Shown here: one piece after another, positions 5,128 through 18,018 of the stretch
Layout of the letters: each line of letters starts with the position of its first letter
How positions within the stretch are numbered: the stretch's first letter is position 1
DNA from: a virus
Lineage: Duplodnaviria; Caudoviricetes
Direction: 5' to 3' (one strand)
IMG/VR virus record: IMGVR_UViG_3300007280_000474
DNA: 64,000 bases
The notes under the pieces: model-generated
Told to the model about the DNA's origin: nothing
Databases searched by the model: none
Seen by the model: only the letters and a program-made list of their open reading frames with translations
Made by a program: the position numbers and the translations under genes

Positions 5128-5369
5128 AGTGGTGGGACAGATTTATAGAATGGAGTTGGCAAAAAGAAGCCGACAGGCAATTTGAAGAAGGACAACAACA
5201 AAAACAAGTTATCGATATGATGGCAGATGATGTTGATCCTAATGAAGTTACGATAGAGAATGCATACAAAACAAGATGGATATGGTATCATACAATATTA
5301 GCAATAGGAATATTTTTTACTAATATTATATTGATAGCCATACTAGTACTATTAGCGATTAAATTATGA
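5124..5369 (+). CDS. Small membrane protein
   Basis: C-terminal TM helix; ATGA overlaps at both ends. Confidence 0.6.
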   Translation: MKWWDRFIEWSWQKEADRQFEEGQQQKQVIDMMADDVDPNEVTIENAYKTRWIWYHTILAIGIFFTNIILIAILVLLAIKL

Positions 5370-6229
5370 GCAAAGGTTATATAGTTATAGCACAAAATAA
5401 TGGGTCTGTGAATTACTTAGAACAGGCTTATGCTCTAGCACTTAATTTAAAATTAACGCAAAGCAAAGTAAGCAATCTATCGGTGTGCGTAGATGCAAAG
5501 ACCAAAGAGTCAATAACCTCTAAGCATAAAAAAGTATTTGACCACATTATAGATATTCCATGGAACGACGATGCACAAGGCACATCATGGAAGATAAACA
5601 ATAAATGGAAGTATTACTATATGACACCTTATGATGAAACAGTAATACTAGACACAGACATGATCTTTCCAACAGACGTTAGCCATTGGTGGGATATGCT
5701 AGAAGAGCGTGATGTATGGGCAACAACCAATGTACTCACTTATAGAGGTGACGTTGTTAGCAGTGATTACTATAGAAAGTATTTTGTTAAGAACGATTTA
5801 CCCAACGTCTATACAGCATTCTTTTATTTCAAGAAAAGCGAATTAGCAACTGAGCTGTTTGCAATGATCGAAATCATATTCCAGCATTGGCAACGCATGT
5901 TCTATAAGTATATGCCGCAAGGAAAACCTGCATGGTTAAGCGGTGATGTAGCATACGCTCTTGCGATGCAACTGTTAAACATTGAACATGAATGTACAAA
6001 GCCATTAACAAAAAGTTTCCCAACATTTGTACACATGAAAAGTCATATACAAGATATTCCAGAAACTATGGTAAATGATAAGTGGACAGAATCATTGCCC
6101 ACTTACTATGATTCGTACAGCAATTTTAAAATAGGAAACTTCCAACAACTTATGCCGTTTCACTATGTAGAGAAAGATTGGATGAATGAAACTAAAGTAA
6201 AGCAAATGGAGAAGGACCTTGGTATCTGA
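5366..6229 (+). CDS. GT-A fold nucleotide-diphospho-sugar transferase (GT8-like)
   Basis: TPYDETVILDTDM DxD motif; paralogue of 3454..4353. Confidence 0.7.
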   Translation: MSKGYIVIAQNNGSVNYLEQAYALALNLKLTQSKVSNLSVCVDAKTKESITSKHKKVFDHIIDIPWNDDAQGTSWKINNKWKYYYMTPYDETVILDTDMIFPTDVSHWWDMLEERDVWATTNVLTYRGDVVSSDYYRKYFVKNDLPNVYTAFFYFKKSELATELFAMIEIIFQHWQRMFYKYMPQGKPAWLSGDVAYALAMQLLNIEHECTKPLTKSFPTFVHMKSHIQDIPETMVNDKWTESLPTYYDSYSNFKIGNFQQLMPFHYVEKDWMNETKVKQMEKDLGI

Positions 6230-6884
6230 AGCAGCATTAGCAAGAAAGCAACGGTTCTTAGATCTTAAAAAAGAACATGGCGGCACAGCAGAAGATGTTA
6301 CTAAGCATTTTAAAAATTTAGAATGGACTATCTGGTTTGAAGAAGATGGCACCATTGTGTCTATGAGCAAGGAAGATAACGAAGATTTAAACAACAAGTA
6401 TGAACATGCAACTTTTACCAAGGAGCAAGCATCGATACTTGAGGATAAAAACTGGAACTTGTATCGTATTTTAACAGACCCTAAGAACAAACATGTTCAT
6501 TATATACAAGTACGCCCTGTAGAAGTAGATAGAGTAGCAACAGAGGATTTCTTTCTATACCAGTTAGACAGTGAAAACAATAGGACTTATGATATAAAAT
6601 TGAGCATGAGTAAAACAGCATTAACAATTAGTGCTCATGCTAATTTAATCAAACAATACAGTGACATTGAGATAAGTAATGCTATAATAAAAGGCAGAAA
6701 GATATTGCCTTTTTATATTACAACAAAAAACGATCCTAGTTTTATGTTACATTATGTTAACCTATCACTAGAGCAATTACTAAATGATAAAAAAGTTGTA
6801 TTGGACATGCCCGAAGATTATAGAGGCGCAAGTGTGTTTACTATAAAACTATTTGACAATTACAAGTTTGAGGAGAAAAAATGA
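6219..6884 (+). CDS. Hypothetical protein, paralogue of 6881..7534
   Basis: Shared ALARK(Q/K)RFL N-terminus and KG(R/K)xI..F..T motif. Confidence 0.65.
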   Translation: MVSEAALARKQRFLDLKKEHGGTAEDVTKHFKNLEWTIWFEEDGTIVSMSKEDNEDLNNKYEHATFTKEQASILEDKNWNLYRILTDPKNKHVHYIQVRPVEVDRVATEDFFLYQLDSENNRTYDIKLSMSKTALTISAHANLIKQYSDIEISNAIIKGRKILPFYITTKNDPSFMLHYVNLSLEQLLNDKKVVLDMPEDYRGASVFTIKLFDNYKFEEKK

Positions 6885-7534
6885 GTGAAGAAATAAGTGC
6901 TCAAGCACTAGCTCGCAAGAAAAGATTTTTAGAAGAGAAAGGTGAGGCTGGCGGATTCGAACAACTAGTTGAAAAAGTAGATAACAGAGAATACTTTTTA
7001 TATTTTGACGAGCGTGGAGATATTCAGTCTTTGTGCAAGGAAAGACCAGACGAAGTAAACCCACTGTGGTTAACTTACAATTTTGATCAGCATGATTTAG
7101 CAATGCTTAAAGACAAAGATGTAAATCAGTTCTGGGTAGTAACAGACAGCAAAGGCAAAAGTAAAATACAACTAAGACCACAATCCACTGTGTATGCTGC
7201 AATGGATTCAGATAATCTTATAAAAGTTGATTTTGGCGAGGGTGATGCAAACTTAAAAGTAAGTATCAAAGAAGACTCAGCAACAATTAAACTCAGCGAC
7301 GAAACAAAAGCAAGTTATGAGGGTGTTTATGCAATACAAGCAACTGTAAAAGGCAAACGCATATTTAAAATCTTCCTAACAGATCCAGAAAATCAAAACA
7401 TCATATACGATACACTTACTGTAAGTATGGTAGAACTACTAACGGAAGAAGTAATCACAAAGGATATCATAGCAGATTTACGCCATTGTCACTTATACAC
7501 TGCGCCGTTGTTCGATAAATACTTGAGAGTATAA
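6881..7534 (+). CDS. Hypothetical protein, paralogue of 6219..6884
   Basis: Same shared motifs; GGAG RBS. Confidence 0.65.
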   Translation: MSEEISAQALARKKRFLEEKGEAGGFEQLVEKVDNREYFLYFDERGDIQSLCKERPDEVNPLWLTYNFDQHDLAMLKDKDVNQFWVVTDSKGKSKIQLRPQSTVYAAMDSDNLIKVDFGEGDANLKVSIKEDSATIKLSDETKASYEGVYAIQATVKGKRIFKIFLTDPENQNIIYDTLTVSMVELLTEEVITKDIIADLRHCHLYTAPLFDKYLRV

Positions 7535-7549
7535 ACAGGACAACACAAT

Positions 7550-8569
7550 ATGGCCAAGATAGATGTCACAGAGTTAGACATTTTTTACATTTCTTATGAT
7601 GAACCAAATTGCGAAGAGCATTGGGCTGATCTATTAAACAAAGTTCCATGGGCTAAACGTATACACGGCGTTAAAGGTTTTGATGCCGCACATAAAGCTG
7701 CCGCTAATCAATCTGAAACAGAACGTTTTATCACAGTAGATGGTGATAACATTGTTATGGACGACTTCTTTGAACAAACATTAGACGTACCTGACACAGA
7801 TTTAGACGGCAATAATATATCAGAAAGTATCTTTAGTTGGAATGCAAAGAACATTCTCAACGGCTTAGTATACGGCAACGGTGGACTAAAGTGTTGGCCT
7901 ACTGAATATACTAAAACAATTAACACACACGAAGCCGCAACAGACGGCGAAGGTATGGAGTTTTGTTGGAAACTTAACTACATACAATTAAACGACACGT
8001 TCTCAGAAGTACATCAAACTGCTTCACCTTTCCAAGCCTTTAGAGCAGGCTTTAGGGAAGGAGTTAAAATGAGTCTAGATCAAGGAAAATGGGTTGAACC
8101 TGATCTTTTTCTTGACAAAATATGGTATGGCAATTATAATAGACTACAAACGTGGTGCAACATTGGTACAGATGTTCCCAATGGTCTGTGGGCATTGTAT
8201 GGTGCTAGACTAGGTTGTGAGATGACTGTTTTAACAAAATGGGACACTAACTTAATATCAGACTATGATTGGTTTAAAAACTTCTTTAACAATGAAGTGG
8301 CTCCACGTTTCGACGGATTGAATGATATGACATGCTCGTACACCAAACTAGAATGGCAACAGGAATTGTTATACAAAGAAGTGTGCAGATTAGGGCATAA
8401 GCTCAATGAAGAGATTAACAGCATGATGCTGTTTAACCCTAATGAACAAATGTGCAAGTTCTTTAAGAAAACATACGTTAACCCAAGAAGGTGGGGTGCT
8501 ATGGTAAGAGAAAAGCAAATACAAGATTTGCTTGAAAAAGGTATGATGGAATTAACCGGTGGCAGATAG
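7550..8569 (+). CDS. Putative GT-A-like glycosyltransferase
   Basis: DIFYISYDEP...GFDAAHKAAA...ITVDGD...YGNGGLKCW...FRAGFREGVKM; homologous to the C-terminal domain of 35914..40401. Confidence 0.6.
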   Translation: MAKIDVTELDIFYISYDEPNCEEHWADLLNKVPWAKRIHGVKGFDAAHKAAANQSETERFITVDGDNIVMDDFFEQTLDVPDTDLDGNNISESIFSWNAKNILNGLVYGNGGLKCWPTEYTKTINTHEAATDGEGMEFCWKLNYIQLNDTFSEVHQTASPFQAFRAGFREGVKMSLDQGKWVEPDLFLDKIWYGNYNRLQTWCNIGTDVPNGLWALYGARLGCEMTVLTKWDTNLISDYDWFKNFFNNEVAPRFDGLNDMTCSYTKLEWQQELLYKEVCRLGHKLNEEINSMMLFNPNEQMCKFFKKTYVNPRRWGAMVREKQIQDLLEKGMMELTGGR

Positions 8570-8807
8570 TGCAAAAATTATAGAGGCACTTAAGAAAGGT
8601 ATAGTCACTATTGTGTTTGAAAAAATAGACACAAAAGAGATTAGAACTATGCCTTGCACACTGAACAACGAAATATCAGGACAAGGGATGGTTTTTAAAA
8701 ACTATCAAAGTACAGATACAATAGTTGCTTATGCCTTAGATAAAAAAGCATGGCGTGACGTGAGAGTAAACACAATAATAGAATGGTACGAAGGTGAGCC
8801 AAAGTAA
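8559..8807 (+). CDS. SH3/Sm-like beta-barrel (WYL_2/DUF2693-like) protein
   Basis: LKKGIVTIVFEK..EIRTMPCTL...LDKKAWR pattern. Confidence 0.6.
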   Translation: MADSAKIIEALKKGIVTIVFEKIDTKEIRTMPCTLNNEISGQGMVFKNYQSTDTIVAYALDKKAWRDVRVNTIIEWYEGEPK

Positions 8808-9609
8808 TTTAAAACTAGGAATAATCGGAGCCGGCTTTGTTGGCGGCAGTGTTATCAATGGTTTTGACAGGAACGTAGAACAGTTTGTGGTAGATACAAA
8901 ATTGTATCCAGAACGTACTATTGACCAGTTAATAGAATTTTCCCCCTCAATAATTTTTGTTTGTGTGCCTACACCAAAAATAGAAGATCACGGCGATGTC
9001 GACGTTAGCATAGTAAGACAAGTACTCAGTGATTTATACGACAGAAACTACAAAGGTGTTGTCGCAATAAAGAGTACTATTACACCTAAGCACTTAACTA
9101 GAATGAAAAAAGACTTTGGTGTAAAAATTGTTTACAATCCAGAGTTTCTCACAGAAGCAAATGCACACCAAGACTTTATTAATCCTCACATGCAAGTGTT
9201 AGGAGGCAAGTGGCGTGATTGTGATACTGTAGAAAAAGCATACAACAGACATAGCAGTGTCAAAGTTGTACCCACATACAAAGTAGACTTAATCACAGCA
9301 AGCATGATCAAGTACACTATTAATAGTTGGCTTGCTACCAAAGTATCATTCTTCAACGAACTGTATGAGTTGCATCAAGAAAGCGGTTCTCACACCAGTT
9401 GGGAGCAGTTCACAGAAATGCTAGGCACAGATCCTCGTATGGGTAAAACACACATGCAAGTACCAGGCCCAGATGGCAAATTTGGCTTCGGCGGACACTG
9501 CTTTCCCAAAGACACGGAAGCATTTTTATATTATGCTAAAAACAAAAAGGTAGAATTGAATCTACTCAAAAAAGCAGTTACTTCTAACAAAAGTAGACGC
9601 AAAGATTAA
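8794..9609 (+). CDS. UDP-glucose/GDP-mannose dehydrogenase family (short form)
   Basis: GAGFVG Rossmann motif, VCVPTP, KST, YNPEFL, GFGGHCFPKD catalytic Cys. Confidence 0.85.
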   Translation: MSQSNLKLGIIGAGFVGGSVINGFDRNVEQFVVDTKLYPERTIDQLIEFSPSIIFVCVPTPKIEDHGDVDVSIVRQVLSDLYDRNYKGVVAIKSTITPKHLTRMKKDFGVKIVYNPEFLTEANAHQDFINPHMQVLGGKWRDCDTVEKAYNRHSSVKVVPTYKVDLITASMIKYTINSWLATKVSFFNELYELHQESGSHTSWEQFTEMLGTDPRMGKTHMQVPGPDGKFGFGGHCFPKDTEAFLYYAKNKKVELNLLKKAVTSNKSRRKD

Positions 9610-9625
9610 TATAATCTTTACACGA

Positions 9626-9643
9626 TTGTAACATAACTTTAAC
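9626..9643 (+). promoter_or_regulatory. Pho-box-like direct repeat upstream of the TonB-dependent receptor
   Basis: TTGTAAC-ATAA-CTTTAAC, 7-4-7 arrangement with 11-bp period. Confidence 0.5.
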
Positions 9644-9662
9644 ATTACAGCAATCAGAATTT

Positions 9663-9670
9663 TATAAATA
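9663..9670 (+). promoter_or_regulatory. T4-type late promoter TATAAATA
   Basis: Exact T4 late consensus in the intergenic region; a second TAAATA at 9678-9683. Confidence 0.6.
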
Positions 9671-9786
9671 ACTGCTGTAAATAACCAATAGGTAAATTTA
9701 CACTAACAGAAAAATATAAAACACAATTAGACGGCAAACACCATTAGGGAAACTTGTCACTCTAAAACCTTTACGAGGAACATAGA

Positions 9787-12570
9787 ATGAAAAAGTTCTT
9801 AACAATGGCATTGCTGTTGGTGCCTACTATTGTATTTGCACAAGACAAATACTACGACAGAAATCAACTCCCTCAATTAAGTCAAGAAATCTTAGAGCAA
9901 TCACAGTTTGAATTCACTGCTACAGAAGTACCTGTAAGCAAGTTAATACCTGTGCAAACTCAAAGAGTACAAGACTTAAAGAAGGAAGAAAAAAGATTAA
10001 TCAAGGCACAACAAAATACTTATAGGCCTTTGGTTATTGATCAGCAATATTATATTATTGACGGTCATCATAGATACGATGCATTAACTGAATTAAGCAT
10101 AGCAAATGCTAGAGTATTATTAGTTGATGCACCTATAGAAGAAGTGGTAGACGTATTTAAACAATACAGAGATTATACTCCAACGTATGAACCTACTGTT
10201 GAAGAAGTAGTTGTTGTAGGAACTAGAGCAACACTTATGAGAGCAGTAGACAAGCAAATGATGGCAGATGGTATTCTCAGTGTTGTTGATTCAGATGCAT
10301 TAGGAAACTTTCCTGATACGACAGCCGCGGACGCCATTAGGCGTTTATCCGGCGTGAGTGTAGAAAACGATCAAGGCGAAGGACGTTATGTTACTATCAG
10401 AGGTTTAAGTTCAGACTTAAACAGTGTAGCAGTTAATGGTGCTAGTATGGTTGCTCCTGAGAATGGACGTTCAGTTATTATGGACGGCATACCAACAGAG
10501 TTAATGGACAGTATCACAGTTGCAAAAACTTTGACACCTGAAATGGATGCAGACAGCATTGGTGGTAGAATTGAATTCAATACTAAAAAGCCAACTGACT
10601 TAGATGAAATGTTGTTAAAAGTAAAAGTTAGTAGTAAGTTTGCAGAATACACAGACTACGAACATGCTCCAAACTTTAGTGTAACGTATGGTGATAACAT
10701 CACAGACAATACAGCACACATTATGGGCCTAACATACAGTTCAAAGAACATCGAAAGTTATAACAATGAAACTGGCTTTGGCTGGGAAGATGGTTATATG
10801 AATGACGACTTTGAATTACGTTATTATGACCTAACCAGAGAACGTTATGGATTCAGTTACGACATAAACACACTACTAGAAAGTGGTGCTGTAGTTTTTG
10901 CTAACATCATGTACAACCAGTACGAAGAAGATGAAGTACGTTTTAAAAACGAATACGGTAAAATCAAACTTGCTGAAGAACTAACAAATGGATTGTTATC
11001 AAGCAGAGTAAGGCACGATGCTGAAACAAGACAACGATACGAAACTAGAAGTATTGGTGCTGTAAATGTTGGTGCTGAATTTGATATTGCTGATTGGGCA
11101 GTTGATTCACAACTAAGTTATAGTTGGGCAGAAGAGGATGATAGCGACAATGCTGACATCACTTTTAGAAACTATGACAAAGACAACGGTGCATATTTTT
11201 ATTGGGATAATCCAGTAAATCCATACGTTGTGCCTGTAGATACAACTTTGCGTAATCCAGAAAACTTAGAGTTTGATGCTTTTGAAATGTGGAGTAACAT
11301 AAGCAAAGATGAAGAAACTAGTTTTCAAATCAATGCAGACAACGGTAACTGGAAAGTAGGATTCAAGCATAGATCAAGAACTAAAGATGTAGATGATTAT
11401 ATTATTGCATATGAATGGGATGACATGACTATGGCAGACTTTGATTACACAACTGCACCAGGTTGGTTCTTCCCTAATCAAGTGTTCGGTAATCATATGA
11501 CTCCTGAAGCGGCATATAATCTGCGTAATCTTACAGATCAAATGTCAGTAGACTTCAGTGATGACATCAGCAGAGACTTTGTTACTGATGAAACTATTAA
11601 CAGTGTTTATGTACAACGCACAGTTGAATTAGACAACACAACAATTATTGCAGGTGTACGTTATGAGCATACTGACTTTGAAAGTACAGCATACGACCAA
11701 GATGGCAACAGAACTTATGCAGAGAATGTCTATGGCTTTGTTGCTCCTAGTGTAACTGTAAAGCATTGGCTCACAGACAACTGGCAAGTACGTGGTGCAT
11801 TGTGGAGAGGTCTAAGTAGACCAGGATTTAAAGAAACTGCTCCTATTACAGATTATGATGTAGACACATCAGGTGATACAAGTGGTAGCATCGGTAATCC
11901 AAATCTCAAACCATATGAAGCAGATAACTTTGATTTAAGTTTAGAATACTATGGTGAGGGCATGACTTACTTTGCAGTAGGTTACTTCCACAAGAGCATT
12001 GCTAATGCAATTTATCCAACGTATCAACGTAATGGTACATTCAACGGCATCGCATTTAATGATGGTGTTGAAACTTGGATTAATGCAGACGACAGCACAG
12101 TTGATGGTATTGAACTTAATGCACAATATGGCTGGGATAATGGACTATACGTTGCAACAAACTTTACATGGACTGATTCAGAAAGTACATTTAAGTTTGA
12201 TGACGACGCAGAGTTTACTACTCCATTCCGCAAGTTAGCAGACAAGGCTGCAAACATTAACTTTGGATATGACAGCGGTGCTTGGGATATCAGAGTTGCA
12301 GGTAATTACAGAAGTGATTACTTAGATTGGTTAGCAGATGAAGATGGCGACATTGGTGAAGTTAGTGCGAACAACAGTAGATATGTTGATGACTTTATGC
12401 AGTGGGATCTGACTGTTAAGTATGAAGTTAATGACAACTTCACTATCAAAGCAGAAGCAATTAACTTAAACAACAGACCAGAATATTATTATTGGGGTGA
12501 TGAATCACAACTCAGCCAATATGACATGTTTGGCAAATCTTATAGTTTAGGATTTAATTACAAACTGTAA
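9787..12570 (+). CDS. TonB-dependent receptor with N-terminal ParB/Srx-like domain
   Basis: Signal peptide; RPLVIDQQYYIIDGHHR; TonB box EEVVVVG; plug DAIRRLSGVSVENDQGEGRYVTIRGL; GNPNLKPYEADNFD; barrel C-terminal strand YSLGFNYKL. Confidence 0.9.
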   Translation: MKKFLTMALLLVPTIVFAQDKYYDRNQLPQLSQEILEQSQFEFTATEVPVSKLIPVQTQRVQDLKKEEKRLIKAQQNTYRPLVIDQQYYIIDGHHRYDALTELSIANARVLLVDAPIEEVVDVFKQYRDYTPTYEPTVEEVVVVGTRATLMRAVDKQMMADGILSVVDSDALGNFPDTTAADAIRRLSGVSVENDQGEGRYVTIRGLSSDLNSVAVNGASMVAPENGRSVIMDGIPTELMDSITVAKTLTPEMDADSIGGRIEFNTKKPTDLDEMLLKVKVSSKFAEYTDYEHAPNFSVTYGDNITDNTAHIMGLTYSSKNIESYNNETGFGWEDGYMNDDFELRYYDLTRERYGFSYDINTLLESGAVVFANIMYNQYEEDEVRFKNEYGKIKLAEELTNGLLSSRVRHDAETRQRYETRSIGAVNVGAEFDIADWAVDSQLSYSWAEEDDSDNADITFRNYDKDNGAYFYWDNPVNPYVVPVDTTLRNPENLEFDAFEMWSNISKDEETSFQINADNGNWKVGFKHRSRTKDVDDYIIAYEWDDMTMADFDYTTAPGWFFPNQVFGNHMTPEAAYNLRNLTDQMSVDFSDDISRDFVTDETINSVYVQRTVELDNTTIIAGVRYEHTDFESTAYDQDGNRTYAENVYGFVAPSVTVKHWLTDNWQVRGALWRGLSRPGFKETAPITDYDVDTSGDTSGSIGNPNLKPYEADNFDLSLEYYGEGMTYFAVGYFHKSIANAIYPTYQRNGTFNGIAFNDGVETWINADDSTVDGIELNAQYGWDNGLYVATNFTWTDSESTFKFDDDAEFTTPFRKLADKAANINFGYDSGAWDIRVAGNYRSDYLDWLADEDGDIGEVSANNSRYVDDFMQWDLTVKYEVNDNFTIKAEAINLNNRPEYYYWGDESQLSQYDMFGKSYSLGFNYKL

Positions 12571-12577
12571 TCAAGAC

Positions 12578-12604
12578 AAAGGGGGCAGTTACGCCCCCTT
12601 TTTT
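12578..12604 (+). terminator. Rho-independent terminator (probably bidirectional)
   Basis: AAAGGGGGC-agttac-GCCCCCTTT then TTT, between convergent genes. Confidence 0.85.
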
Positions 12605-12686
12605 ATTTAACTCCTACTAATTTAGCCACGTTGGTAAGCCTACCAGACTTCATTAGTTTGTCAAATTTTTTCCATGCTTTAGCCAT
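12603..12686 (-). CDS. 27-aa cationic amphipathic peptide (not in ORF track)
   Basis: MAKAWKKFDKLMKSGRLTNVAKLVGVK; AGGAG 7 nt before ATG; overlaps the stop of the upstream gene. Confidence 0.5.
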   Translation of the reverse strand: MAKAWKKFDKLMKSGRLTNVAKLVGVK

Positions 12687-13035
12687 TCATAGTCTCCTGT
12701 AAATCTGAGACTCGGCATGAGCCTATTGCTCTTTTGCGAAGTTTCTTTTCGCTGAGGTTCAAAAATGTTATTTTTGTATTGTCTTTTACCACACTAGAGG
12801 CATGCGAGTAGAGACCTAAATTTTCAGCACCTACCATGTCAACATATTCCATTACTGGGCAGTTAGGTAGATCACCTACAACTAGGTTTCCGTTTCTTAG
12901 TTCAAAATGAACTTTATTAGTGTTTGTGACTTTTATATCACTTATAGCCCTAATGGGCACGTGATTGTCAGCCAATGCTGTTCCACTGCTTAAGAGTAGA
13001 GTTAGCATGGCTACTGTTCCTATTGGCTTCGCCAT
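12679..13035 (-). CDS. Secreted/periplasmic small protein (possibly DUF6491-like)
   Basis: Signal peptide ending ALA-D; two Cys; AGGAG RBS. Confidence 0.6.
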   Translation of the reverse strand: MAKPIGTVAMLTLLLSSGTALADNHVPIRAISDIKVTNTNKVHFELRNGNLVVGDLPNCPVMEYVDMVGAENLGLYSHASSVVKDNTKITFLNLSEKKLRKRAIGSCRVSDLQETMNG

Positions 13036-13061
13036 AATCTCTCCTTATTGTTTGTGCAACG

Positions 13062-13095
13062 ATTATGCAACTTGAATGTTACATTTATGTTACAA
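13062..13095 (-). promoter_or_regulatory. Pho-box promoter
   Basis: Minus strand reads TTGTAAC-ATAA-ATGTAAC, 10 nt, CATAAT, matching PhoB promoter geometry. Confidence 0.6.
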
Positions 13096-13098
13096 AAT

Positions 13099-13106
13099 TA
13101 TTTATC
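13099..13106 (-). promoter_or_regulatory. Late promoter GATAAATA
   Basis: TATTTATC on + strand upstream of the gene starting at 13035. Confidence 0.5.
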
Positions 13107-13186
13107 ATTAACTGATGTTATATTAACTGAGTTGTGAATTACTCATATTTGATATGCTAACACACTATGGTAAGATAAATATTGAT

Positions 13187-13909
13187 ATGCACTACTTCTT
13201 AGAGTCAAATATTGAGTTTATGTCGCAGGAAATGAAAGATCATTTATGCGAACTTGCTGACAAACATGTTGAGAAACTTGAAGTACAACATCGTCCTTGG
13301 AAAGAAATTTCATACGCAGGAGAACACGATCAACGTGAAACGCACACCAGAACTGAAGAACTAGTAGGTATAAGAACTGCAAGAGAATTCAAACGTAGAA
13401 AAATTTTGTTAGCAAGACACTTTGGATACAAAGCAGAAGGCATGAAAGAAATGCAATTACATGCATATCATATACCAAATGATATTGCACAAGAACTCAA
13501 ACGTAATGCAGCTCAGATGCTTGACATCGAAGAAGACACTATAGATCCCATATTACAAATTCAAACAGAAGGTAATATACTTTATCCACATTGCGGACAC
13601 AGCAGAGAGTCTAGCATGTTTTGTTTGTTAGCGGGCGATTGTGCTAAAACACAATGGTACGAAGAAACAGAACCATTCCACATGTATGAGAATTGGCGTG
13701 TACCAGATGCTTCTAAAATAAAAGAAGTAGAGGAAACGCAATTCAGAATAGGTCCTTGGTATACATTTAATCACCAACAGTGGCATTCAGTTAAACGTCC
13801 TGACAAATCAGTTAAACGTATTAACATCAATCTCAACTTTACATCACTATCATACGCAGATTTAGAAGAAAAACTGTTTGATATGAATGGTGTTGTTGAA
13901 CAATCCTAA
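13187..13909 (+). CDS. Cupin/2OG-Fe(II) oxygenase-like protein
   Basis: YPHCGH...FNHQQWHSV..RININ pattern; ATG 13187 lies 5 nt after GATAAATA (alternative start 13154). Confidence 0.55.
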   Translation: MHYFLESNIEFMSQEMKDHLCELADKHVEKLEVQHRPWKEISYAGEHDQRETHTRTEELVGIRTAREFKRRKILLARHFGYKAEGMKEMQLHAYHIPNDIAQELKRNAAQMLDIEEDTIDPILQIQTEGNILYPHCGHSRESSMFCLLAGDCAKTQWYEETEPFHMYENWRVPDASKIKEVEETQFRIGPWYTFNHQQWHSVKRPDKSVKRININLNFTSLSYADLEEKLFDMNGVVEQS

Positions 13910-13962
13910 ATAAGAACAAGTCGCGTCTTGCCAGCAATATTGTAGCCATGGAATTTTCTGGT

Positions 13963-13970
13963 GATAAATA
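13963..13970 (+). promoter_or_regulatory. Late promoter GATAAATA
   Basis: Intergenic, upstream of the dehydrogenase/radical SAM operon. Confidence 0.55.
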
Positions 13971-14010
13971 TATGCGTACTTAAACGTACACTACAATTAG
14001 GAGAATACAA

Positions 14011-15336
14011 ATGGCCTCGATCGGATTTGTAGGCGTAGGTAAGTTAGGTCAAGCCTGTGCTGAAATGGTCGCCGAGGTTCATCAAGTTGTAGGATATGAT
14101 GTTAATCATGTAGAGCCTGAAAACTTTACAATGGTTGACAGTGTGGCAGATGCTGTAAGAGGACAAGAAATTGTTTTTGTTGCAGTACCAACTCCACATG
14201 ATCCTCAATACGATGGAAAGGCACCAACCAGCCATTTGCCAAACAAAGACTTCGACTACTCGATAGTACGACAAGTTCTAAGTGAAGTGAATGCTGTAGC
14301 GACCAAAGACCAATTAGTAGTATTGATATCAACAGTACTACCAGGAACAGTAAGAAGAGAACTAGTCGATCTTATTCCCAATGCACGTTTCGTGTATAAC
14401 CCTTACCTTATCGCCATGGGCACTGTAAAGTGGGACATGGTAAACCCAGAAATGGTTATGATAGGAACTGAGGACGGCGATGAGAACGGAGACGCAAAAG
14501 AGTTAATAGACTTTTACAAAACAATCATGCAAAACGAACCACGTTACATTGTTGGAACGTGGGACGAATGTGAATGTATCAAAGTATTTTACAATACATT
14601 TATATCAGCAAAAGTAAGTTTGGTTAACATGATTCAAGACGTTGCAGAAAAGCAAGGCAACATCAACGCAGAAGTTGTGTGTGATGCACTTGCGGCAAGT
14701 GACCGACGTATTATGGGACCAGGTTATATGAAGCCGGGCATGGGAGACGGAGGTGCTTGTCACCCTCGTGATAACATTGCCTTACGTTGGATGGCTGATG
14801 AGTTGGATTTAGGATATGATTTGTTTGATGCTGTAATGCTTTCAAGAGAAGTACAAGCAGAAAACATGGCTAAGAAATTAATGGAATTAGCAGGACACGA
14901 CCATCCACAATTTGGCTCAGTGCCTGATTTACCAGTAGTTATTGTAGGCAAAGCCTATAAGCCATTAGTAGAATATGAAGCAGGTTCTGCCAGTATGTTA
15001 GTTGGACACTACATACAAAAAGCAGGTTGGGATTTGTATTACTACGATGAGAAAACAGGCGATATACCTAGTCAGGATATACTAGACAATCCAGCAGTAT
15101 ACTTGTTAGCTCATAATCCAAGCATCACATATGGTGATCAGTTAGACACAGTACCCGGATGGTATAACGACCATAACGTATCAGATTGTGATACTGCTTT
15201 AGTAGCAACAGGTAACGGAACAGAGCTAAACTTTGCACCAGGAAGTGTTGTAGTTGATCCTTGGAGAAAGACACCTGAAATTGAAGGTGTTAAAGTTGTG
15301 CATTATGGTAATACAAGAAAACAAGCACTAAGATAA
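14011..15336 (+). CDS. UDP-glucose/GDP-mannose dehydrogenase family
   Basis: GVGKLG, VAVPTP, ISTVLPG, GDGGACHPRD, C-terminal GKAYKP. Confidence 0.85.
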   Translation: MASIGFVGVGKLGQACAEMVAEVHQVVGYDVNHVEPENFTMVDSVADAVRGQEIVFVAVPTPHDPQYDGKAPTSHLPNKDFDYSIVRQVLSEVNAVATKDQLVVLISTVLPGTVRRELVDLIPNARFVYNPYLIAMGTVKWDMVNPEMVMIGTEDGDENGDAKELIDFYKTIMQNEPRYIVGTWDECECIKVFYNTFISAKVSLVNMIQDVAEKQGNINAEVVCDALAASDRRIMGPGYMKPGMGDGGACHPRDNIALRWMADELDLGYDLFDAVMLSREVQAENMAKKLMELAGHDHPQFGSVPDLPVVIVGKAYKPLVEYEAGSASMLVGHYIQKAGWDLYYYDEKTGDIPSQDILDNPAVYLLAHNPSITYGDQLDTVPGWYNDHNVSDCDTALVATGNGTELNFAPGSVVVDPWRKTPEIEGVKVVHYGNTRKQALR

Positions 15337-15344
15337 GGTGATTT

Positions 15345-16751
15345 ATGAGTGAACGATTAGAACGCATTAAGGCAATTGATTTAATGATGACAGAGGAAGT
15401 TAGTCCTACATTCTGTTTGGCTAAATGGCATCATACAACAATTTACTTACACAGAGGGCAAACACATAGTTGTTATCACCCTAAGCCACATGACATTCCT
15501 GTACAGGAACTAAAGTGGGATCCGAGCGTGTTACACAATACTCCAACTAAAATTGATGAGCGTATTCAAATGTTCAATGGTGAACAATGTGAAGGCTGTC
15601 AGTATTGTTGGAATGTTGAGAACATGGGTGACGATCATGTAAGTGATAGACATCAACGTAATGCTAGTATTTTCAAGCCGGAACGTTTAGAAGAAATTTT
15701 AAACAATCCACCGGACTTCAAAGTAAATCCAGAATACATTGAGATTGCATTCAGTAATGAGTGCAATTTCAAATGTGGATACTGTCACCCAATGCACAGT
15801 AGTTTGTATCACAAAGAAATTGAAAAGCATGGTCCATATACAACAGTTCAAAATCACAGAAACGATATTGACTGGTTTGATGTGTATGGCGAAGAAGGCA
15901 ATCCATATATTGAAGCATGGTGGAAATGGTGGCCTGAAGTAAGTAAGACGCTAAACATTTTGCGTATTACAGGAGGCGAACCTTTGTTGCACAAAACAAC
16001 ATGGGGTATGTTTGAATACTTGATTGAGAATCCTAGACCTAGTATTGAGATTAATATTAATACTAACATGGGCTACACACCAAGGCGTATGGAAAAACTT
16101 GTTGATGCAGTTACTAGAATGCGAGATAATAAATCTATCAAGGCATTTAAAATGTTTAGTTCTATGGATACATGGGGCAAACGTGCTGAATATTTACGCA
16201 CAGGATTAGACGTTGATATTTGGGAAAAGAATCAAGACATTTACTTGCGTGGTGTTAAAAGTCATATCACGCACATGGTAACATTTAATATACTAAGTGT
16301 AACCAGTTTCACAGACTTTTTAAAGAAGATTTTAGAATGGAGAAAAACATACGAGGACATTATACCTAACAATTTAGGCACAGATGAAAATGTTCGTAAG
16401 ATTAGATTTGATACTCCATACTTGAAAGAACCTATTCAGTATGATATGCACATACTGCCTAAGGAAGAATTTTTACCTTACTTTGATAAGATATTAGACT
16501 TTATCAGAGAGAACGTTGTTGAAGACGATAGAACAATGTTTAGCGAATTAGAATACGAGAGATTCCGCAGAGTACGTGATTACTTTGCAAACGAGCAGTA
16601 CCCTGAAGAACGTATTAAAGAAGGCCGCAGAGATTTTTACGGCTGGTTCTCAGAATATGACAAGCGAAGAGATGTATCGTTTTTAGATACTTTCCCAGAA
16701 ATGGAAAACTTCTGGAACTTGTGCAAGGAAGAGTATGAAAAACAAAATTGA
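15345..16751 (+). CDS. Radical SAM protein with N-terminal Twitch/SPASM-like Cys domain (1 of 5)
   Basis: FCLAKW..SCYH..CQYC; CNFKCGYC; TGGEP. Confidence 0.85.
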   Translation: MSERLERIKAIDLMMTEEVSPTFCLAKWHHTTIYLHRGQTHSCYHPKPHDIPVQELKWDPSVLHNTPTKIDERIQMFNGEQCEGCQYCWNVENMGDDHVSDRHQRNASIFKPERLEEILNNPPDFKVNPEYIEIAFSNECNFKCGYCHPMHSSLYHKEIEKHGPYTTVQNHRNDIDWFDVYGEEGNPYIEAWWKWWPEVSKTLNILRITGGEPLLHKTTWGMFEYLIENPRPSIEININTNMGYTPRRMEKLVDAVTRMRDNKSIKAFKMFSSMDTWGKRAEYLRTGLDVDIWEKNQDIYLRGVKSHITHMVTFNILSVTSFTDFLKKILEWRKTYEDIIPNNLGTDENVRKIRFDTPYLKEPIQYDMHILPKEEFLPYFDKILDFIRENVVEDDRTMFSELEYERFRRVRDYFANEQYPEERIKEGRRDFYGWFSEYDKRRDVSFLDTFPEMENFWNLCKEEYEKQN

Positions 16752-18018
16752 TGTAAAGCAAATAGATTTACCTGCAATTAAGAAAAAGTCTTTATGTGCC
16801 TTGCCGTGGTTACACATACATGTGACTCCGGATCAAAACATAATGCCATGCTGTATTGCTAACATGGAAAATGTTGACGATGTTAGAAGTACCATGGATG
16901 ATGGCATCATGGATTGGATGAACTCCGACGCAATGAAAAAGATGAGACTTGATATGCTTAATGGTGAACAACCTAATGCATGTAAAACTTGCTATCATCA
17001 AGAAATAAGCATGGAGAGTTTTAGAAAAACAACTCTACGTGAATACGATGAATTCCTTGAAGAGAATATTGCTAACACAAACGAAGATGGAAGTTTAGAT
17101 GAATTTAAAATGCGTTACTTAGATATGCGTTTTAGTAATTTATGTAATATGAAATGTAGAACTTGTGGTAGTGCATATAGTTCACAATGGGAGATCGAAG
17201 ATGCAAAATACAATGTTCATTTTAATCAACCTATAAATGAAATTAACACGCCTGTTATTATTGAAGAACTAAAACAGCAACTTCCTAATTTAAAGAAGGC
17301 GTATTTTGCAGGCGGTGAGCCATTAATAATGGATGACCATTACATGTTGTTAGAAGAAATGATAAGACTAGGAAAAACAGATATACAATTATCATATAAC
17401 ACTAACATCAGCAAACTGAAATACAGAGACAAAGATTTGATAAAGTTGTGGTCACAGTTTAAACACAAAGTTCAAATATATGCAAGTCTAGATGACTTTG
17501 GTTCTAAAGCAGAGTATATCAGACACGGGACCAAGTGGAACGAAGTAATGAAAAATTATGAAAAGTTACACAAAGATAAAACTGTACAATTAAACATCAC
17601 TACCAGTGTATCGTTATTTAACTGGCCAACACTAACAACATTTATTGATTACTTACAGGAACAAGGACTTGCACCATGGGCAATAGGAAACGGAGGTGCA
17701 TGGCAAATCAATCCGATATACGGTCCAGAAGAATTTAGTTTCCAAGCATTGCCAACAGAATACAAAAAGCAAGTGATTGCTGAACAAAAAGAGTATATTC
17801 AAAAATTAAGAGTACTAGATAAAAATCATAATGTAGTACATCAAGTAGAATTACTAATGAACCAACTAGAGCAGTTAGCCACACTGGCTTTAGCAAAAGA
17901 TAGTTGGGAAGAAAAGAAGAACAGATTTAGAACAGAAGTTAGAAAGATAGATGGGCGTAGAGGCGAAGACTTTGCTACAACATTCCCAGAACTTGCGAGG
18001 CTAGTACATGAAGAATGA
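16735..18018 (+). CDS. Radical SAM protein with N-terminal Twitch/SPASM-like domain (2 of 5)
   Basis: CALPW..PCC..CKTC; CNMKCRTC; AGGEP. Confidence 0.85.
   Translation: MKNKIDVKQIDLPAIKKKSLCALPWLHIHVTPDQNIMPCCIANMENVDDVRSTMDDGIMDWMNSDAMKKMRLDMLNGEQPNACKTCYHQEISMESFRKTTLREYDEFLEENIANTNEDGSLDEFKMRYLDMRFSNLCNMKCRTCGSAYSSQWEIEDAKYNVHFNQPINEINTPVIIEELKQQLPNLKKAYFAGGEPLIMDDHYMLLEEMIRLGKTDIQLSYNTNISKLKYRDKDLIKLWSQFKHKVQIYASLDDFGSKAEYIRHGTKWNEVMKNYEKLHKDKTVQLNITTSVSLFNWPTLTTFIDYLQEQGLAPWAIGNGGAWQINPIYGPEEFSFQALPTEYKKQVIAEQKEYIQKLRVLDKNHNVVHQVELLMNQLEQLATLALAKDSWEEKKNRFRTEVRKIDGRRGEDFATTFPELARLVHEE

What the first reader, a model, noticed from the sequence alone, without database searches (positions are those of the whole stretch)
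9787..12570. Phage TonB-dependent receptor with a ParB/Srx-like domain between signal peptide and TonB box
Seen: signal peptide, then ~100 aa with LIPVQ...RPLVIDQQYYIIDGHHR (ParB/sulfiredoxin signature, ~9856-10160), then TonB box EEVVVVG (10201-10221), plug and complete barrel in one frame. Established: N-terminal TBDR extensions are normally STN or CarboxypepD_reg-like domains, and ParB/Srx folds are cytoplasmic NTP-binding/hydrolysing modules. Inference: a periplasmic nucleotide or phosphoester-processing domain tethered under an importer, or a recent phage-made fusion. The plug/barrel motifs recall receptors found beside beta-propeller phytases (from memory, unverified).
Basis: partly seen in the sequence, partly recalled or inferred. 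Interest (0 to 1): 0.75.

Follow-up and report, generated by a model that had tools for sequence, protein, structure and literature searches.

The report
Phage outer-membrane importer with ParB-like domain
A large marine phage carries a bacterial-type outer-membrane nutrient importer, probably switched on by the host's phosphate-starvation regulator, with a small phage-type ParB/sulfiredoxin-fold domain attached to its periplasmic end, an arrangement seen here only in phages and whose biochemical role is untested.

Summary
ORF 9787-12570 encodes, in one frame, a signal peptide, a ~115-aa domain, a TonB box, a plug and a complete barrel.

The extra domain is a true ParB/Srx fold. AF2 gives pLDDT 91. 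Foldseek matches ParB-N, Noc, sulfiredoxin and SerK. A profile search hits 5k5d at E=8e-7.

It is not an assembly chimera. The same architecture occurs in 50 protein clusters (56-100% identity) from independent marine assemblies. Five of the six contexts read carry clear phage genes, mostly T4-like; the sixth looks phage-like. The domain is under purifying selection (dN/dS 0.11).

A second phage encodes the domain as a separate secreted protein 9 nt upstream of the receptor gene. In 401 genomes of the order of the nearest named bacterial relatives, the profile gave only weak partial ParB hits, none in a receptor-sized frame.

Those relatives are Porticoccaceae (SAR92) genomes, 60% identical. 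They lack the domain and have a beta-propeller phytase gene directly downstream.

The phage gene sits behind a direct repeat that closely matches the Pho box of pstS in those bacteria.

Best reading: a Pho-controlled phosphorus-scavenging cassette in which a phage ParB/Srx domain replaces the phytase as the receptor's periplasmic partner. Its chemistry is unknown. First readers of this scan noted the same architecture on two other genomes.

The parts
9626..9645 (+). Pho-box-like direct repeat TTGTAAC-ATAA-CTTTAAC-AT, about 140-160 nt upstream of the start codon. A possible -10 (TATAAA) lies at 9663-9668; that is my inference.
   Evidence: The exact pattern occurs only twice in the window, both times in this islet (chance 0.21). 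It resembles the pstS Pho box CTGTCAC-ATAA-CTTTAAT of Porticoccaceae genome G002 and the corresponding box of G001. A related motif lies upstream of the split operon in L023.
9787..9840 (+). Sec-type signal peptide, residues 1-18, predicted cleavage VFA|QD.
   Evidence: Every domain-bearing homologue starts with a signal peptide. Judged by eye, no predictor run.
9844..10182 (+). ParB/Srx-fold domain ('N-dom'), residues 20-132. Invariant residues: R25, P29, Q30, P55, Q57, P81, G93, H94, H95, R96. Nearly invariant: R60, D85, D98.
   Evidence: Profile against PDB sequences: 5k5d E=8e-7, SerK 5e-4, SbnI 1.6e-3. AF2 pLDDT 91.3, pTM 0.85. Foldseek hits ParB-N, Noc, Srx, ParB and SerK and phage ParB/Srx proteins. 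dN/dS 0.107.
10060..10074 (+). DGHHR motif, residues 92-96, the predicted phosphate-binding loop.
   Evidence: G, H, H and R are invariant in 60 sequences. The motif aligns to DGHHR of serine kinase SerK.
10183..10221 (+). Disordered tether, residues 133-145, ending in the TonB box EEVVVVG (10201-10221).
   Evidence: pLDDT is below 50 for residues 133-145 in the full-length model. The TonB box aligns with that of receptors lacking the domain.
10261..10566 (+). Plug domain, residues 159-260.
   Evidence: PF07715, E=3.4e-14.
10597..12570 (+). Beta-barrel, about residues 271-927, plus the stop codon.
   Evidence: PF00593 E=1.6e-38; TIGR01782 end to end. The AF2 barrel is confident and Foldseek matches many TonB-dependent transporter structures.
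12578..12601 (.). GC-rich hairpin with T runs on both sides, a bidirectional terminator shared with the convergent small gene.
12679..13035 (-). Convergent 118-aa secreted protein of unknown family. It is a neighbour and probably co-regulated, but not a required partner.
   Evidence: Signal peptide seen. No Pfam or PHROG hit. Present without any receptor gene in the syntenic phage contig L030.
13076..13094 (-). Second copy of the Pho-box-like repeat, TGTAACATAAATGTAACAT, 41-59 nt upstream of the small gene.
   Evidence: Conserved in L030 as TGTAACAAAAGTGTAATA.

Best explanation
This is a phage auxiliary cassette for phosphorus scavenging.

Shown:
- A large marine myophage carries a complete TonB-dependent outer-membrane transporter.
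- Its nearest named bacterial relatives are the receptors next to the phytase gene in Porticoccaceae (SAR92).
- The gene has its own promoter region with a host-type Pho box and its own terminator.
- It is an insertion relative to a syntenic phage that lacks it.

Inferred:
- In a phosphate-starved host, PhoB turns the gene on.
- The protein is exported and inserted in the outer membrane.
- With host TonB it imports an organophosphate, with phytate the leading candidate.

Shown for the domain:
- The phage did not take the phytase. Instead, a ~115-aa ParB/Srx-fold domain from the phage domain pool is fused between the signal peptide and the TonB box.
- In one phage lineage the domain is encoded as a separate secreted protein just upstream of the receptor gene.
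- It therefore hangs in the periplasm on a flexible tether at the transporter's exit.

Inferred for the domain:
- Its invariant pocket (R25, Q57, R60, D85, GHHR 93-96, D98) binds a phosphoryl group. It either captures the imported phosphorylated ligand or hydrolyses it to release phosphate for PstS.
- In this reading it serves as a compact stand-in for the periplasmic phytase partner.
For: Architecture and fold.

Found in phages only:
- The six domain-bearing contexts read are P0022, P0035, P0037, P0040, P0042 and P0049.
- Four lie on T4-like contigs with gp23, portal, sheath, baseplate, gp32/gp59 or spanin genes.
- The P0040 contig shares the window's local gene order.
- L031 looks phage-like only.
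- The window itself has PHROG tail-fibre, HNH and exonuclease hits.

Not seen in bacteria: in 401 genomes of the order of the Porticoccaceae relatives, the profile gave only weak partial ParB hits, none in a receptor-sized frame.

Origin of the domain: its relatives are phage ParB/Srx proteins and polyvalent-like phage proteins.

Split form:
- In phage contigs L023 and L024 the signal-peptide-plus-domain gene ends 9 nt before a receptor gene with its own signal peptide.
- P0090, a 95% relative of that receptor, branches next to the base of the fused clade.

Selection: dN/dS is 0.107 for the domain, 0.064 for the plug and 0.060 for the barrel.

Phytase link:
- In L009-L012 the receptor (60% identity over residues 138-927) is followed by PF02333 phytase and preceded by PPK2 and NUDIX genes.
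- A published survey infers phytate as the substrate from receptor-phytase adjacency (PMC3400609).

Pho box.

Precedent: phage genes with pho boxes controlled by host PhoBR (PMC10976474).

Insertion: L030 is syntenic with the window but lacks the receptor gene.
Against: - No activity or ligand is known for this domain.
- Known ParB/Srx enzymes use NTPs or act on DNA in the cytoplasm. None is known to act as a phosphomonoesterase.
- The residue aligned to SerK's catalytic Glu30 is an invariant Gln.
- The domain's closest non-receptor relatives mostly lack signal peptides, so its ancestral role was probably cytoplasmic or virion-borne.
- The substrate is inferred only from bacterial relatives at 60% identity. 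The closest bacterial relative (P0053, 69%, L008) has no phytase beside it.
- The Pho-box pattern is only moderately specific: the reversed control pattern gave 5 hits in G001.
- Some fused loci show no clear box (L031; only a half-site in L001).
- A copy 85% identical, without the domain, sits in another phage (P0034). The domain is therefore dispensable for at least some uses of the receptor.
- The host is not identified.
Confidence: 0.5

Rival explanations
1. Superinfection exclusion. The phage-made receptor is a trapped copy of a phage entry site. Its periplasmic ParB/Srx domain acts as a non-specific DNase/NTPase, as proposed for ParB domains of phage polyvalent proteins, and destroys DNA of competing phages that is released into the periplasm.
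For: TonB-dependent receptors are common phage receptors (my own knowledge). ParB/Srx domains of phages and plasmids are reported or predicted to be NTP-regulated DNases that can degrade rival elements (PMC5512222). The domain's nearest relatives are phage proteins of that type.
Against: The Pho-box-like promoter and the phytase-linked ancestry point to nutrient stress, not defence. NTP-regulated nuclease activity would lack NTPs in the periplasm. There is no evidence that any phage uses this receptor.
Confidence: 0.13
2. Regulatory or mechanical module. The domain works like the STN signalling domain of FecA/FpvA-type transducers, or it modulates TonB engagement. It would contact a periplasmic or inner-membrane partner (host TonB/ExbBD, a sensor, or the plug) rather than a small molecule.
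For: The topology is the same as in STN-bearing transducers: signal peptide, extra domain, TonB box, plug. The tether around the TonB box is disordered.
Against: The fold is ParB/Srx, not STN. No sigma or anti-sigma gene was seen among the neighbours scanned. The invariant polar pocket is shared with cytoplasmic relatives, which suggests a conserved small-ligand or catalytic site rather than a lineage-specific protein interface.
Confidence: 0.12
3. The receptor imports something unrelated to phosphorus, for example a carbohydrate, as other members of the TonB-Xanth-Caul subfamily do, or a metal chelate. In that case the domain's role is tied to that substrate.
For: TIGR01782-type receptors take chitin oligosaccharides, maltodextrins, xylan and sucrose as well as phytate (PMC3400609). 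The window's cassette lies inside a large sugar-tailoring gene cluster next to UDP-sugar dehydrogenase genes. A sulfatase-family gene follows the receptor gene in L004.
Against: The upstream short dehydrogenase gene is also present in L030, which has no receptor gene. That adjacency is therefore synteny of the insertion site, not an operon. The phytase adjacency in four bacterial relatives and the pstS-like box favour phosphorus.
Confidence: 0.15
4. The domain is a functionless passenger, or the fusion is an assembly or annotation artefact.
For: A domain-less copy exists in another phage. Read mapping could not be done.
Against: There are 50 clusters from independent assemblies, and the only signal peptide lies ahead of the domain. 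dN/dS is 0.11 and ten residues are invariant. The model is confident. A split form keeps the same gene pairing.
Confidence: 0.02

Closest known systems
Phytase-linked TonB-dependent receptors of Porticoccaceae (SAR92) and other Pseudomonadota; subfamily TIGR01782 'TonB-Xanth-Caul'
   Same: 60% identity over residues 138-927. The subfamily model matches end to end. The TonB box, plug and barrel are the same. A similar upstream operator is present (TTGTCACAAAACCCTAAC in L012).
   Different: The bacterial proteins are about 820 aa, with the TonB box directly after the signal peptide, and a beta-propeller phytase gene downstream. The phage protein has the extra ParB/Srx domain and no phytase gene nearby.
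TonB-dependent transducers with an N-terminal STN signalling domain (FecA, FpvA, FoxA; PDB 1kmo, 2o5p, 6i97)
   Same: An extra globular periplasmic domain lies between the signal peptide and the TonB box. The overall barrel and plug fold is shared.
   Different: The extra domain here is ParB/Srx-fold, not STN. No sigma/anti-sigma pair was seen. Sequence identity is 11-13% only.
ParB/Srx superfamily: pNOB8-type ParB-N (5k5d), serine kinases SerK (5x0j) and SbnI (5uje), sulfiredoxin (1xw4), Noc/ParB CTPases (7ng0, 7bnk)
   Same: The fold is shared (Foldseek E down to 9e-6, TM about 0.55-0.61). The profile match is E=8e-7. A DGHHR motif is shared with SerK and SbnI.
   Different: This domain is exported to the periplasm. 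It has Gln where SerK has the catalytic Glu30. It lacks the Cys of sulfiredoxin. It has its own invariant N-terminal R..LPQ and PxQxQR motifs. It is about 115 aa with no DNA-binding or dimerisation domain.
ParB/Srx domains of phage proteins, both small standalone ones and polyvalent proteins (Iyer, Burroughs, Anand, de Souza and Aravind 2017, PMC5512222)
   Same: These are the nearest structural and sequence relatives: phiMAM1 K7Z9N4 at TM 0.75, Ralstonia phage Alix (1054 aa), and multi-domain proteins P0130-P0158.
   Different: Most of those have no signal peptide. They are thought to act in the cytoplasm or to be injected. None is fused to a membrane transporter.
Cyanophage pstS/phoA and other phage genes under host PhoBR control (PMC10976474)
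   Same: A host-derived phosphorus-acquisition gene in a T4-like marine phage, with a host-type Pho box upstream.
   Different: This is an outer-membrane transporter rather than a periplasmic binding protein or phosphatase. The host is a heterotrophic gammaproteobacterium rather than a cyanobacterium. It carries an added domain. Its regulation is not tested.

Membership tests
TonB-dependent transporter (TIGR01782 subfamily) | N-terminal signal peptide and TonB box | tested here: met
   Residues 1-18 and EEVVVVG at 139-145. The TonB box aligns with that of bacterial relatives. The signal peptide was judged by eye.
TonB-dependent transporter (TIGR01782 subfamily) | Plug domain and complete beta-barrel above curated thresholds | tested here: met
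   PF07715 53.7 bits (cut-off 23.9); PF00593 134 bits (cut-off 27); TIGR01782 442.5 bits (cut-off 310), positions 1-867 of 868. AF2 and Foldseek agree.
TonB-dependent transporter (TIGR01782 subfamily) | TonB-energised transport of a substrate | not testable with these tools
   Needs uptake assays.
Phytase-linked receptor | Adjacent beta-propeller phytase gene | tested here: not met
   Met in the bacterial relatives L009-L012. No phytase homologue was found in the window or in the held phage loci.
ParB/Srx superfamily | ParB/Srx alpha+beta fold | tested here: met
   AF2 pLDDT 91.3. Foldseek probability 1.00 to ParB-N, Noc, Srx, ParB and SerK.
ParB/Srx superfamily | Sequence-profile membership | tested here: met
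   The family profile hits 5k5d at E=8e-7 and SerK at 5e-4. Pfam ParBc_2 is below its cut-off for this protein (20.2 against 23.6 bits) and just above it for homologue P0122 (24.1 bits).
ParB/Srx superfamily | Conserved Arg-containing phosphate-binding loop (GxxR / DGHHR) | tested here: met
   G93, H94, H95 and R96 are invariant in 60 sequences and align to DGHHR of SerK.
SerK/SbnI serine kinases (ParBc_2) | Catalytic Glu (SerK E30) | tested here: not met
   An invariant Gln57 aligns with position 30 of the E30Q mutant chain 5x0j. NCBIfam SerK scores 16 bits against a cut-off of 380.
ParB/Srx superfamily | NTP binding or hydrolysis, or DNase activity | not testable with these tools
   Needs biochemistry.
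STN-type TonB-dependent transducer | STN (PF07660) N-terminal domain with a sigma/anti-sigma partner | tested here: not met
   No STN hit. The fold is ParB/Srx. No sigma or anti-sigma family was found in the neighbours scanned.
Pho-regulon-controlled phage auxiliary gene | Host-type Pho box in the promoter | tested here: inconclusive
   The repeat at 9626-9645 matches 15 of 20 positions of the pstS box of G002. Both Porticoccaceae pstS promoters carry the box. Related motifs occur upstream in L023, L004, L022 and L030. Pattern specificity is modest, and PhoB binding is untested.
Pho-regulon-controlled phage auxiliary gene | Induction under phosphate limitation | not testable with these tools

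The most novel reading that the evidence does not exclude
The domain is the first extracytoplasmic catalytic member of the ParB/Srx superfamily. It would be a periplasmic phosphohydrolase, acting on inositol phosphates or nucleotides, that marine phages welded to an outer-membrane importer. The result would be a single-polypeptide 'import and release phosphate' device that replaces the bacterial receptor-plus-phytase pair.
Probability: 0.2. Interest if true: 0.85.

Novelty: new variant of a known kind. Interest (0 to 1): 0.68.

Why it matters
N-terminal extensions of TonB-dependent receptors are known as signalling (STN) or carboxypeptidase-regulatory-like domains. A ParB/Srx fold there, outside the cytoplasm, is not a described arrangement. 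I did not find it in the literature searches run here. The precomputed Pfam annotations of the homologues list only the plug and barrel domains.

It is widespread and conserved in marine T4-like phages. It therefore points to a specific and testable way in which viruses of heterotrophic bacterioplankton rewire host phosphorus uptake, beyond the cyanophage pstS/phoA paradigm. It also points to an unknown activity of a very common phage domain.

The fused form, the split form, the domain-less phage copy and the empty-site relative together form a natural series for dissecting what the domain adds.

Tried and rejected
- Complex prediction of the split pair (receptor core of L023 with the secreted domain P0126) gave no verdict, score 0.00. 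It counts neither for nor against binding.
No other route was tried.
- Megablast against GenBank phages found nothing. tblastn found only distant receptor hits (27-34% identity) on unannotated faecal and metagenomic 'phage' contigs.
- No whole genome is held for the window, so the host could not be sought through the genome.
- Literature searches for phage-encoded TonB receptors as auxiliary genes and for SAR92 phages returned nothing directly relevant.
- The ESM Atlas feature search gave only sub-threshold viral 'hypothetical' clusters with scores of 0.81-0.83. These are a lead only.
- The fusion of the same domain family to Cu/Zn superoxide dismutase first looked like independent evidence for a periplasmic location. 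I rejected this because those proteins have no signal peptide.
- The recurring short UDP-sugar dehydrogenase gene upstream of the receptor gene looked like an operon partner. I rejected this because L030 keeps that gene without the receptor gene.
- The tree needs at least 4-5 gains or losses of the domain and is only midpoint-rooted. I draw no direction of transfer from it.
Full report
**1. What is in the sequence**

ORF 9787-12570 (+) is a single open frame of 927 aa.
- Pfam finds the Plug domain (residues 159-260) and the TonB-dependent barrel (454-894).
- NCBIfam TIGR01782 ('TonB-Xanth-Caul' receptors) matches residues 138-926 over the whole model, at 442 bits against a cut-off of 310.
- Residues 1-18 look like a Sec signal peptide. 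EEVVVVG at residues 139-145 (nt 10201-10221) aligns with the TonB box of relatives.
- Residues 20-137 lie between these two elements. For this stretch Pfam gives only a sub-threshold ParBc_2 hit (20.2 bits, cut-off 23.6).

**2. The extra domain is a ParB/Srx fold**

An exhaustive search with residues 20-140 found 196 representative proteins.

A 60-sequence alignment (A2) has invariant R25, P29, Q30, P55, Q57, P81, G93, H94, H95 and R96. R60, D85 and D98 are nearly invariant.

The profile of that alignment hits several solved chains:
- a pNOB8-type ParB N-domain (5k5d, E=8e-7);
- the ADP-dependent serine kinase SerK (5x0j, 5e-4);
- SbnI (1.6e-3);
- Noc, Spo0J and sulfiredoxin in the weak tail.

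AF2 on the alignment gives pLDDT 91.3 and pTM 0.85. Foldseek returns ParB-N, Noc, sulfiredoxin, ParB-CDP/CTPγS and SerK, all at probability 1.00.

The GHHR loop aligns with DGHHR of SerK. The invariant Gln57 aligns with residue 30 of the E30Q SerK mutant chain, which is the catalytic Glu of the wild type. The domain is therefore not a SerK-type kinase, although it keeps the phosphate-binding loop.

In the full-length model (pLDDT 83.5) the domain is a separate confident globule. It is joined to the plug by a disordered stretch (residues 133-145) that contains the TonB box. The barrel and plug match solved TonB-dependent transporters only generically, at 11-15% identity.

**3. Real, conserved and found only in phages**

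In the 5.8-billion-protein collection, 50 clusters (56-100% identity, 921-968 aa) have the same signal peptide, domain and receptor layout. The next relatives (about 820 aa, 69% identity or less) start their match at the TonB box.

The six domain-bearing contexts I read are as follows.
- P0022: between gp2 and the baseplate genes, with gp32, gp59, gp5, gp25 and gp6 nearby.
- P0035: Clp protease, PhoH and a clamp-loader-like gene.
- P0042: directly after gp23, with portal, sheath and prohead protease.
- P0037: a T4 spanin-like gene.
- P0040: shares the window's local gene order.
- P0049: small overlapping ORFs, 2OG oxygenases and radical SAM genes; phage-like but with no hallmark gene.

The window itself has PHROG tail-fibre, HNH, exonuclease and carbamoyltransferase hits. 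Its MoxR-like ATPase is closest to that of jumbo phage PA5oct.

Selection on the domain is purifying. Between the window and L001, dN/dS is 0.107 for the domain, 0.064 for the plug and 0.060 for the barrel.

In 401 genomes of the order that holds the nearest named bacterial relatives, the domain profile gave only weak, partial, generic ParB hits (best 40 bits). None lay in a receptor-sized frame.

**4. Where the two halves come from**

*Receptor half.* A scan of species-representative genomes found four loci in Porticoccaceae and 'Pseudomonadales' metagenome-assembled genomes, one labelled HTCC2207, that is SAR92.
- They are 60% identical over residues 138-927 and lack the domain.
- In all four the next gene is a beta-propeller phytase (PF02333). 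PPK2 and NUDIX genes lie upstream.
It also agrees with a published inference that such receptors take phytate (PMC3400609).
- No phytase, PPK2 or NUDIX homologue is present in the window or the held phage loci.

*Domain half.* The relatives found are phage proteins.
- Some are small ParB/Srx proteins of cultured phages: phiMAM1, Moby, AS-szw and ACP17, with TM up to 0.75.
- Others are long multi-domain proteins with several ParB-like modules, a GNAT-like part or Cu/Zn superoxide dismutase, and no signal peptide.
- These resemble the polyvalent proteins whose ParB domains are proposed to be NTP-sensing or NTP-regulated DNases (PMC5512222).

**5. A split form and other natural variants**
- Split form: in phage contigs L023 and L024 (virion structural protein phrog_1645, ferrochelatase) the domain is a 134-aa protein with its own signal peptide. 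Its stop codon lies 9 nt before an 819-aa receptor gene that also has its own signal peptide. That receptor is 56% identical to the window's. P0090, a 95% relative of it, branches next to the base of the fused clade.
- Domain-less phage copy: a receptor 85% identical to the window's sits in a different, PolA/primase/RNR-type phage.
- Bacterial copy: a 69%-identical domain-less copy lies on a bacterial contig with uvrB and thrS.
- Empty site: L030 is syntenic with window 5366-18018 but has about 94 nt where the window has the receptor gene.

The receptor gene with its promoter is therefore a mobile insertion among related phages. The pairing of domain and receptor is maintained in two gene arrangements.

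**6. Regulation**

- The repeat TGTAACA-N6-TAAC occurs exactly twice in 64 kb (chance 0.21). One copy is upstream of the receptor gene (9627). The other is upstream of the convergent small secreted-protein gene (13078, minus strand).
- At the time, the only match in the 25 loci then held lay 72-88 nt upstream of the split operon in L023.
- Variants lie upstream of the cassette in L004 and L022, ahead of a tiny lipoprotein-like ORF, and upstream of the small gene in L030.
- The bacterial receptor genes carry TTGTCACAAAACCCTAAC (L012) and TTGTCAAAAAATTCTAAT (L011) upstream.
- A degenerate pattern covering the phage and bacterial versions was run over two Porticoccaceae genomes. It hit only those two sites and one more, which lies inside a textbook Pho box (TTGTCAT-ATTT-CTGTCAC-ATAA-CTTTAAT) in front of pstS-pstC.
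- The other genome has the same box before its pstS.
- The phage box TTGTAAC-ATAA-CTTTAAC matches the second and third repeats of that pstS box.
- The pattern is not very specific, because the reversed control gave 5 hits in one genome. The weight rests on where the hits fall.
- Control of phage genes by host PhoBR through pho boxes has experimental precedent in cyanophages (PMC10976474).

**7. Interpretation**

The best-supported account is a phosphate-starvation-induced phosphorus-scavenging cassette.
- The receptor comes from the bacterial phytate-type lineage.
- In phages, the periplasmic phytase partner is replaced by a small ParB/Srx domain placed at the transporter's periplasmic exit.
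- The domain's invariant Arg/His/Gln/Asp pocket is shared with its cytoplasmic phage relatives. This argues for a conserved small phosphorylated ligand or a catalytic site.
- Whether the domain binds, hands over or hydrolyses that ligand is open.

Rivals that remain open:
- a periplasmic nuclease used for superinfection exclusion;
- an STN-like or TonB-modulating module;
- a substrate that is not a phosphorus compound.

A functionless passenger or an artefact is effectively excluded.

**8. Novelty**

Phage-borne TonB-dependent receptors recur in this scan (e1-4702854, e1-5660674, e1-5391790, e1-5406218). First readers flagged this same architecture on two other genomes (e1-5725220, e1-5741662). 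Another note describes a ParB-like gene overlapping the start of a compact phage receptor (e1-5324508), which may be an independent instance of the pairing; I did not test it.

New in this analysis:
- the verified fold;
- the restriction to phages;
- the split form;
- the empty site;
- the phytase ancestry;
- the Pho box.

I class the finding as a new variant of a known kind: a TonB-dependent transporter and phage auxiliary gene with an undescribed type of periplasmic extension.

Noticed in passing
window 12679-13035 (-), box at 13076-13094: A 118-aa secreted protein with no known family sits behind the same Pho-box-like repeat. It has 16 relatives (E up to 0.001) in marine metagenomes, and the two contexts read are phage contigs. 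It keeps its box in L030, where no receptor gene is present. It may be a second phosphate-responsive phage gene.
   Followed up: partly
L030 1-10372 compared with window 5366-18018: This phage contig is syntenic with the window (287/222/217/334-aa genes, WYL_2, short UDP-sugar dehydrogenase, small secreted gene, full dehydrogenase, two radical SAM genes). It lacks the receptor gene, so it is a natural empty site for the cassette.
   Followed up: yes
L004 9761-9994 and L022 about 7770-7990: A tiny lipoprotein-like ORF (lipobox LSTGC or LSGC, mature part about 25-30 aa) lies directly upstream of the fused receptor gene in two phages, downstream of the Pho-like repeat. It may be a surface or periplasmic accessory of the receptor.
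   Followed up: no
P0136, P0145, P0154, P0158 (proteins): The same ParB/Srx subfamily is fused after a Cu/Zn superoxide dismutase domain in long phage-like proteins that have no signal peptide. Other members (P0130, P0132, P0133) carry two or three ParB-like modules, a GNAT-like region and a conserved basic Cys-containing C-terminal tail.
   Followed up: partly
L006/L007 6001-8436: A receptor 85% identical to the window's, but without the ParB-like domain, sits between a helicase gene and small ORFs in a phage with PolA, primase, PhoH and RNR genes. The same receptor lineage therefore moves between unrelated phage types.
   Followed up: partly
L008 5912-8407: A domain-less receptor (69% identity) on a bacterial contig (uvrB, thrS, an AraC-type regulator) nests inside the phage clade in the tree. 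This could reflect phage-to-bacterium transfer or a rooting problem.
   Followed up: no
window 8794-9609; L004 8584-9384; L022 6635-7435; L030 5466-6281: A truncated UDP-glucose/GDP-mannose dehydrogenase-like gene (266-271 aa) has the N-terminal and central domains only. It is conserved at 65-67% identity between the window, L004 and L022. The full-length paralogue is at window 14011-15336.
   Followed up: partly
L004 12855-14129: A sulfatase / alkaline-phosphatase-superfamily gene (PF00884, with a weak Phosphodiest hit) directly follows the fused receptor gene in one phage. It could be a phosphoester or sulfoester hydrolase partner.
   Followed up: no
L028 380-1345 (-) and 1490-2641 (+): In Porticoccaceae genome G002 the pstS Pho box lies in a divergent intergenic region shared with a porin gene (Porin_4). 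That porin is possibly phosphate-selective.
   Followed up: no
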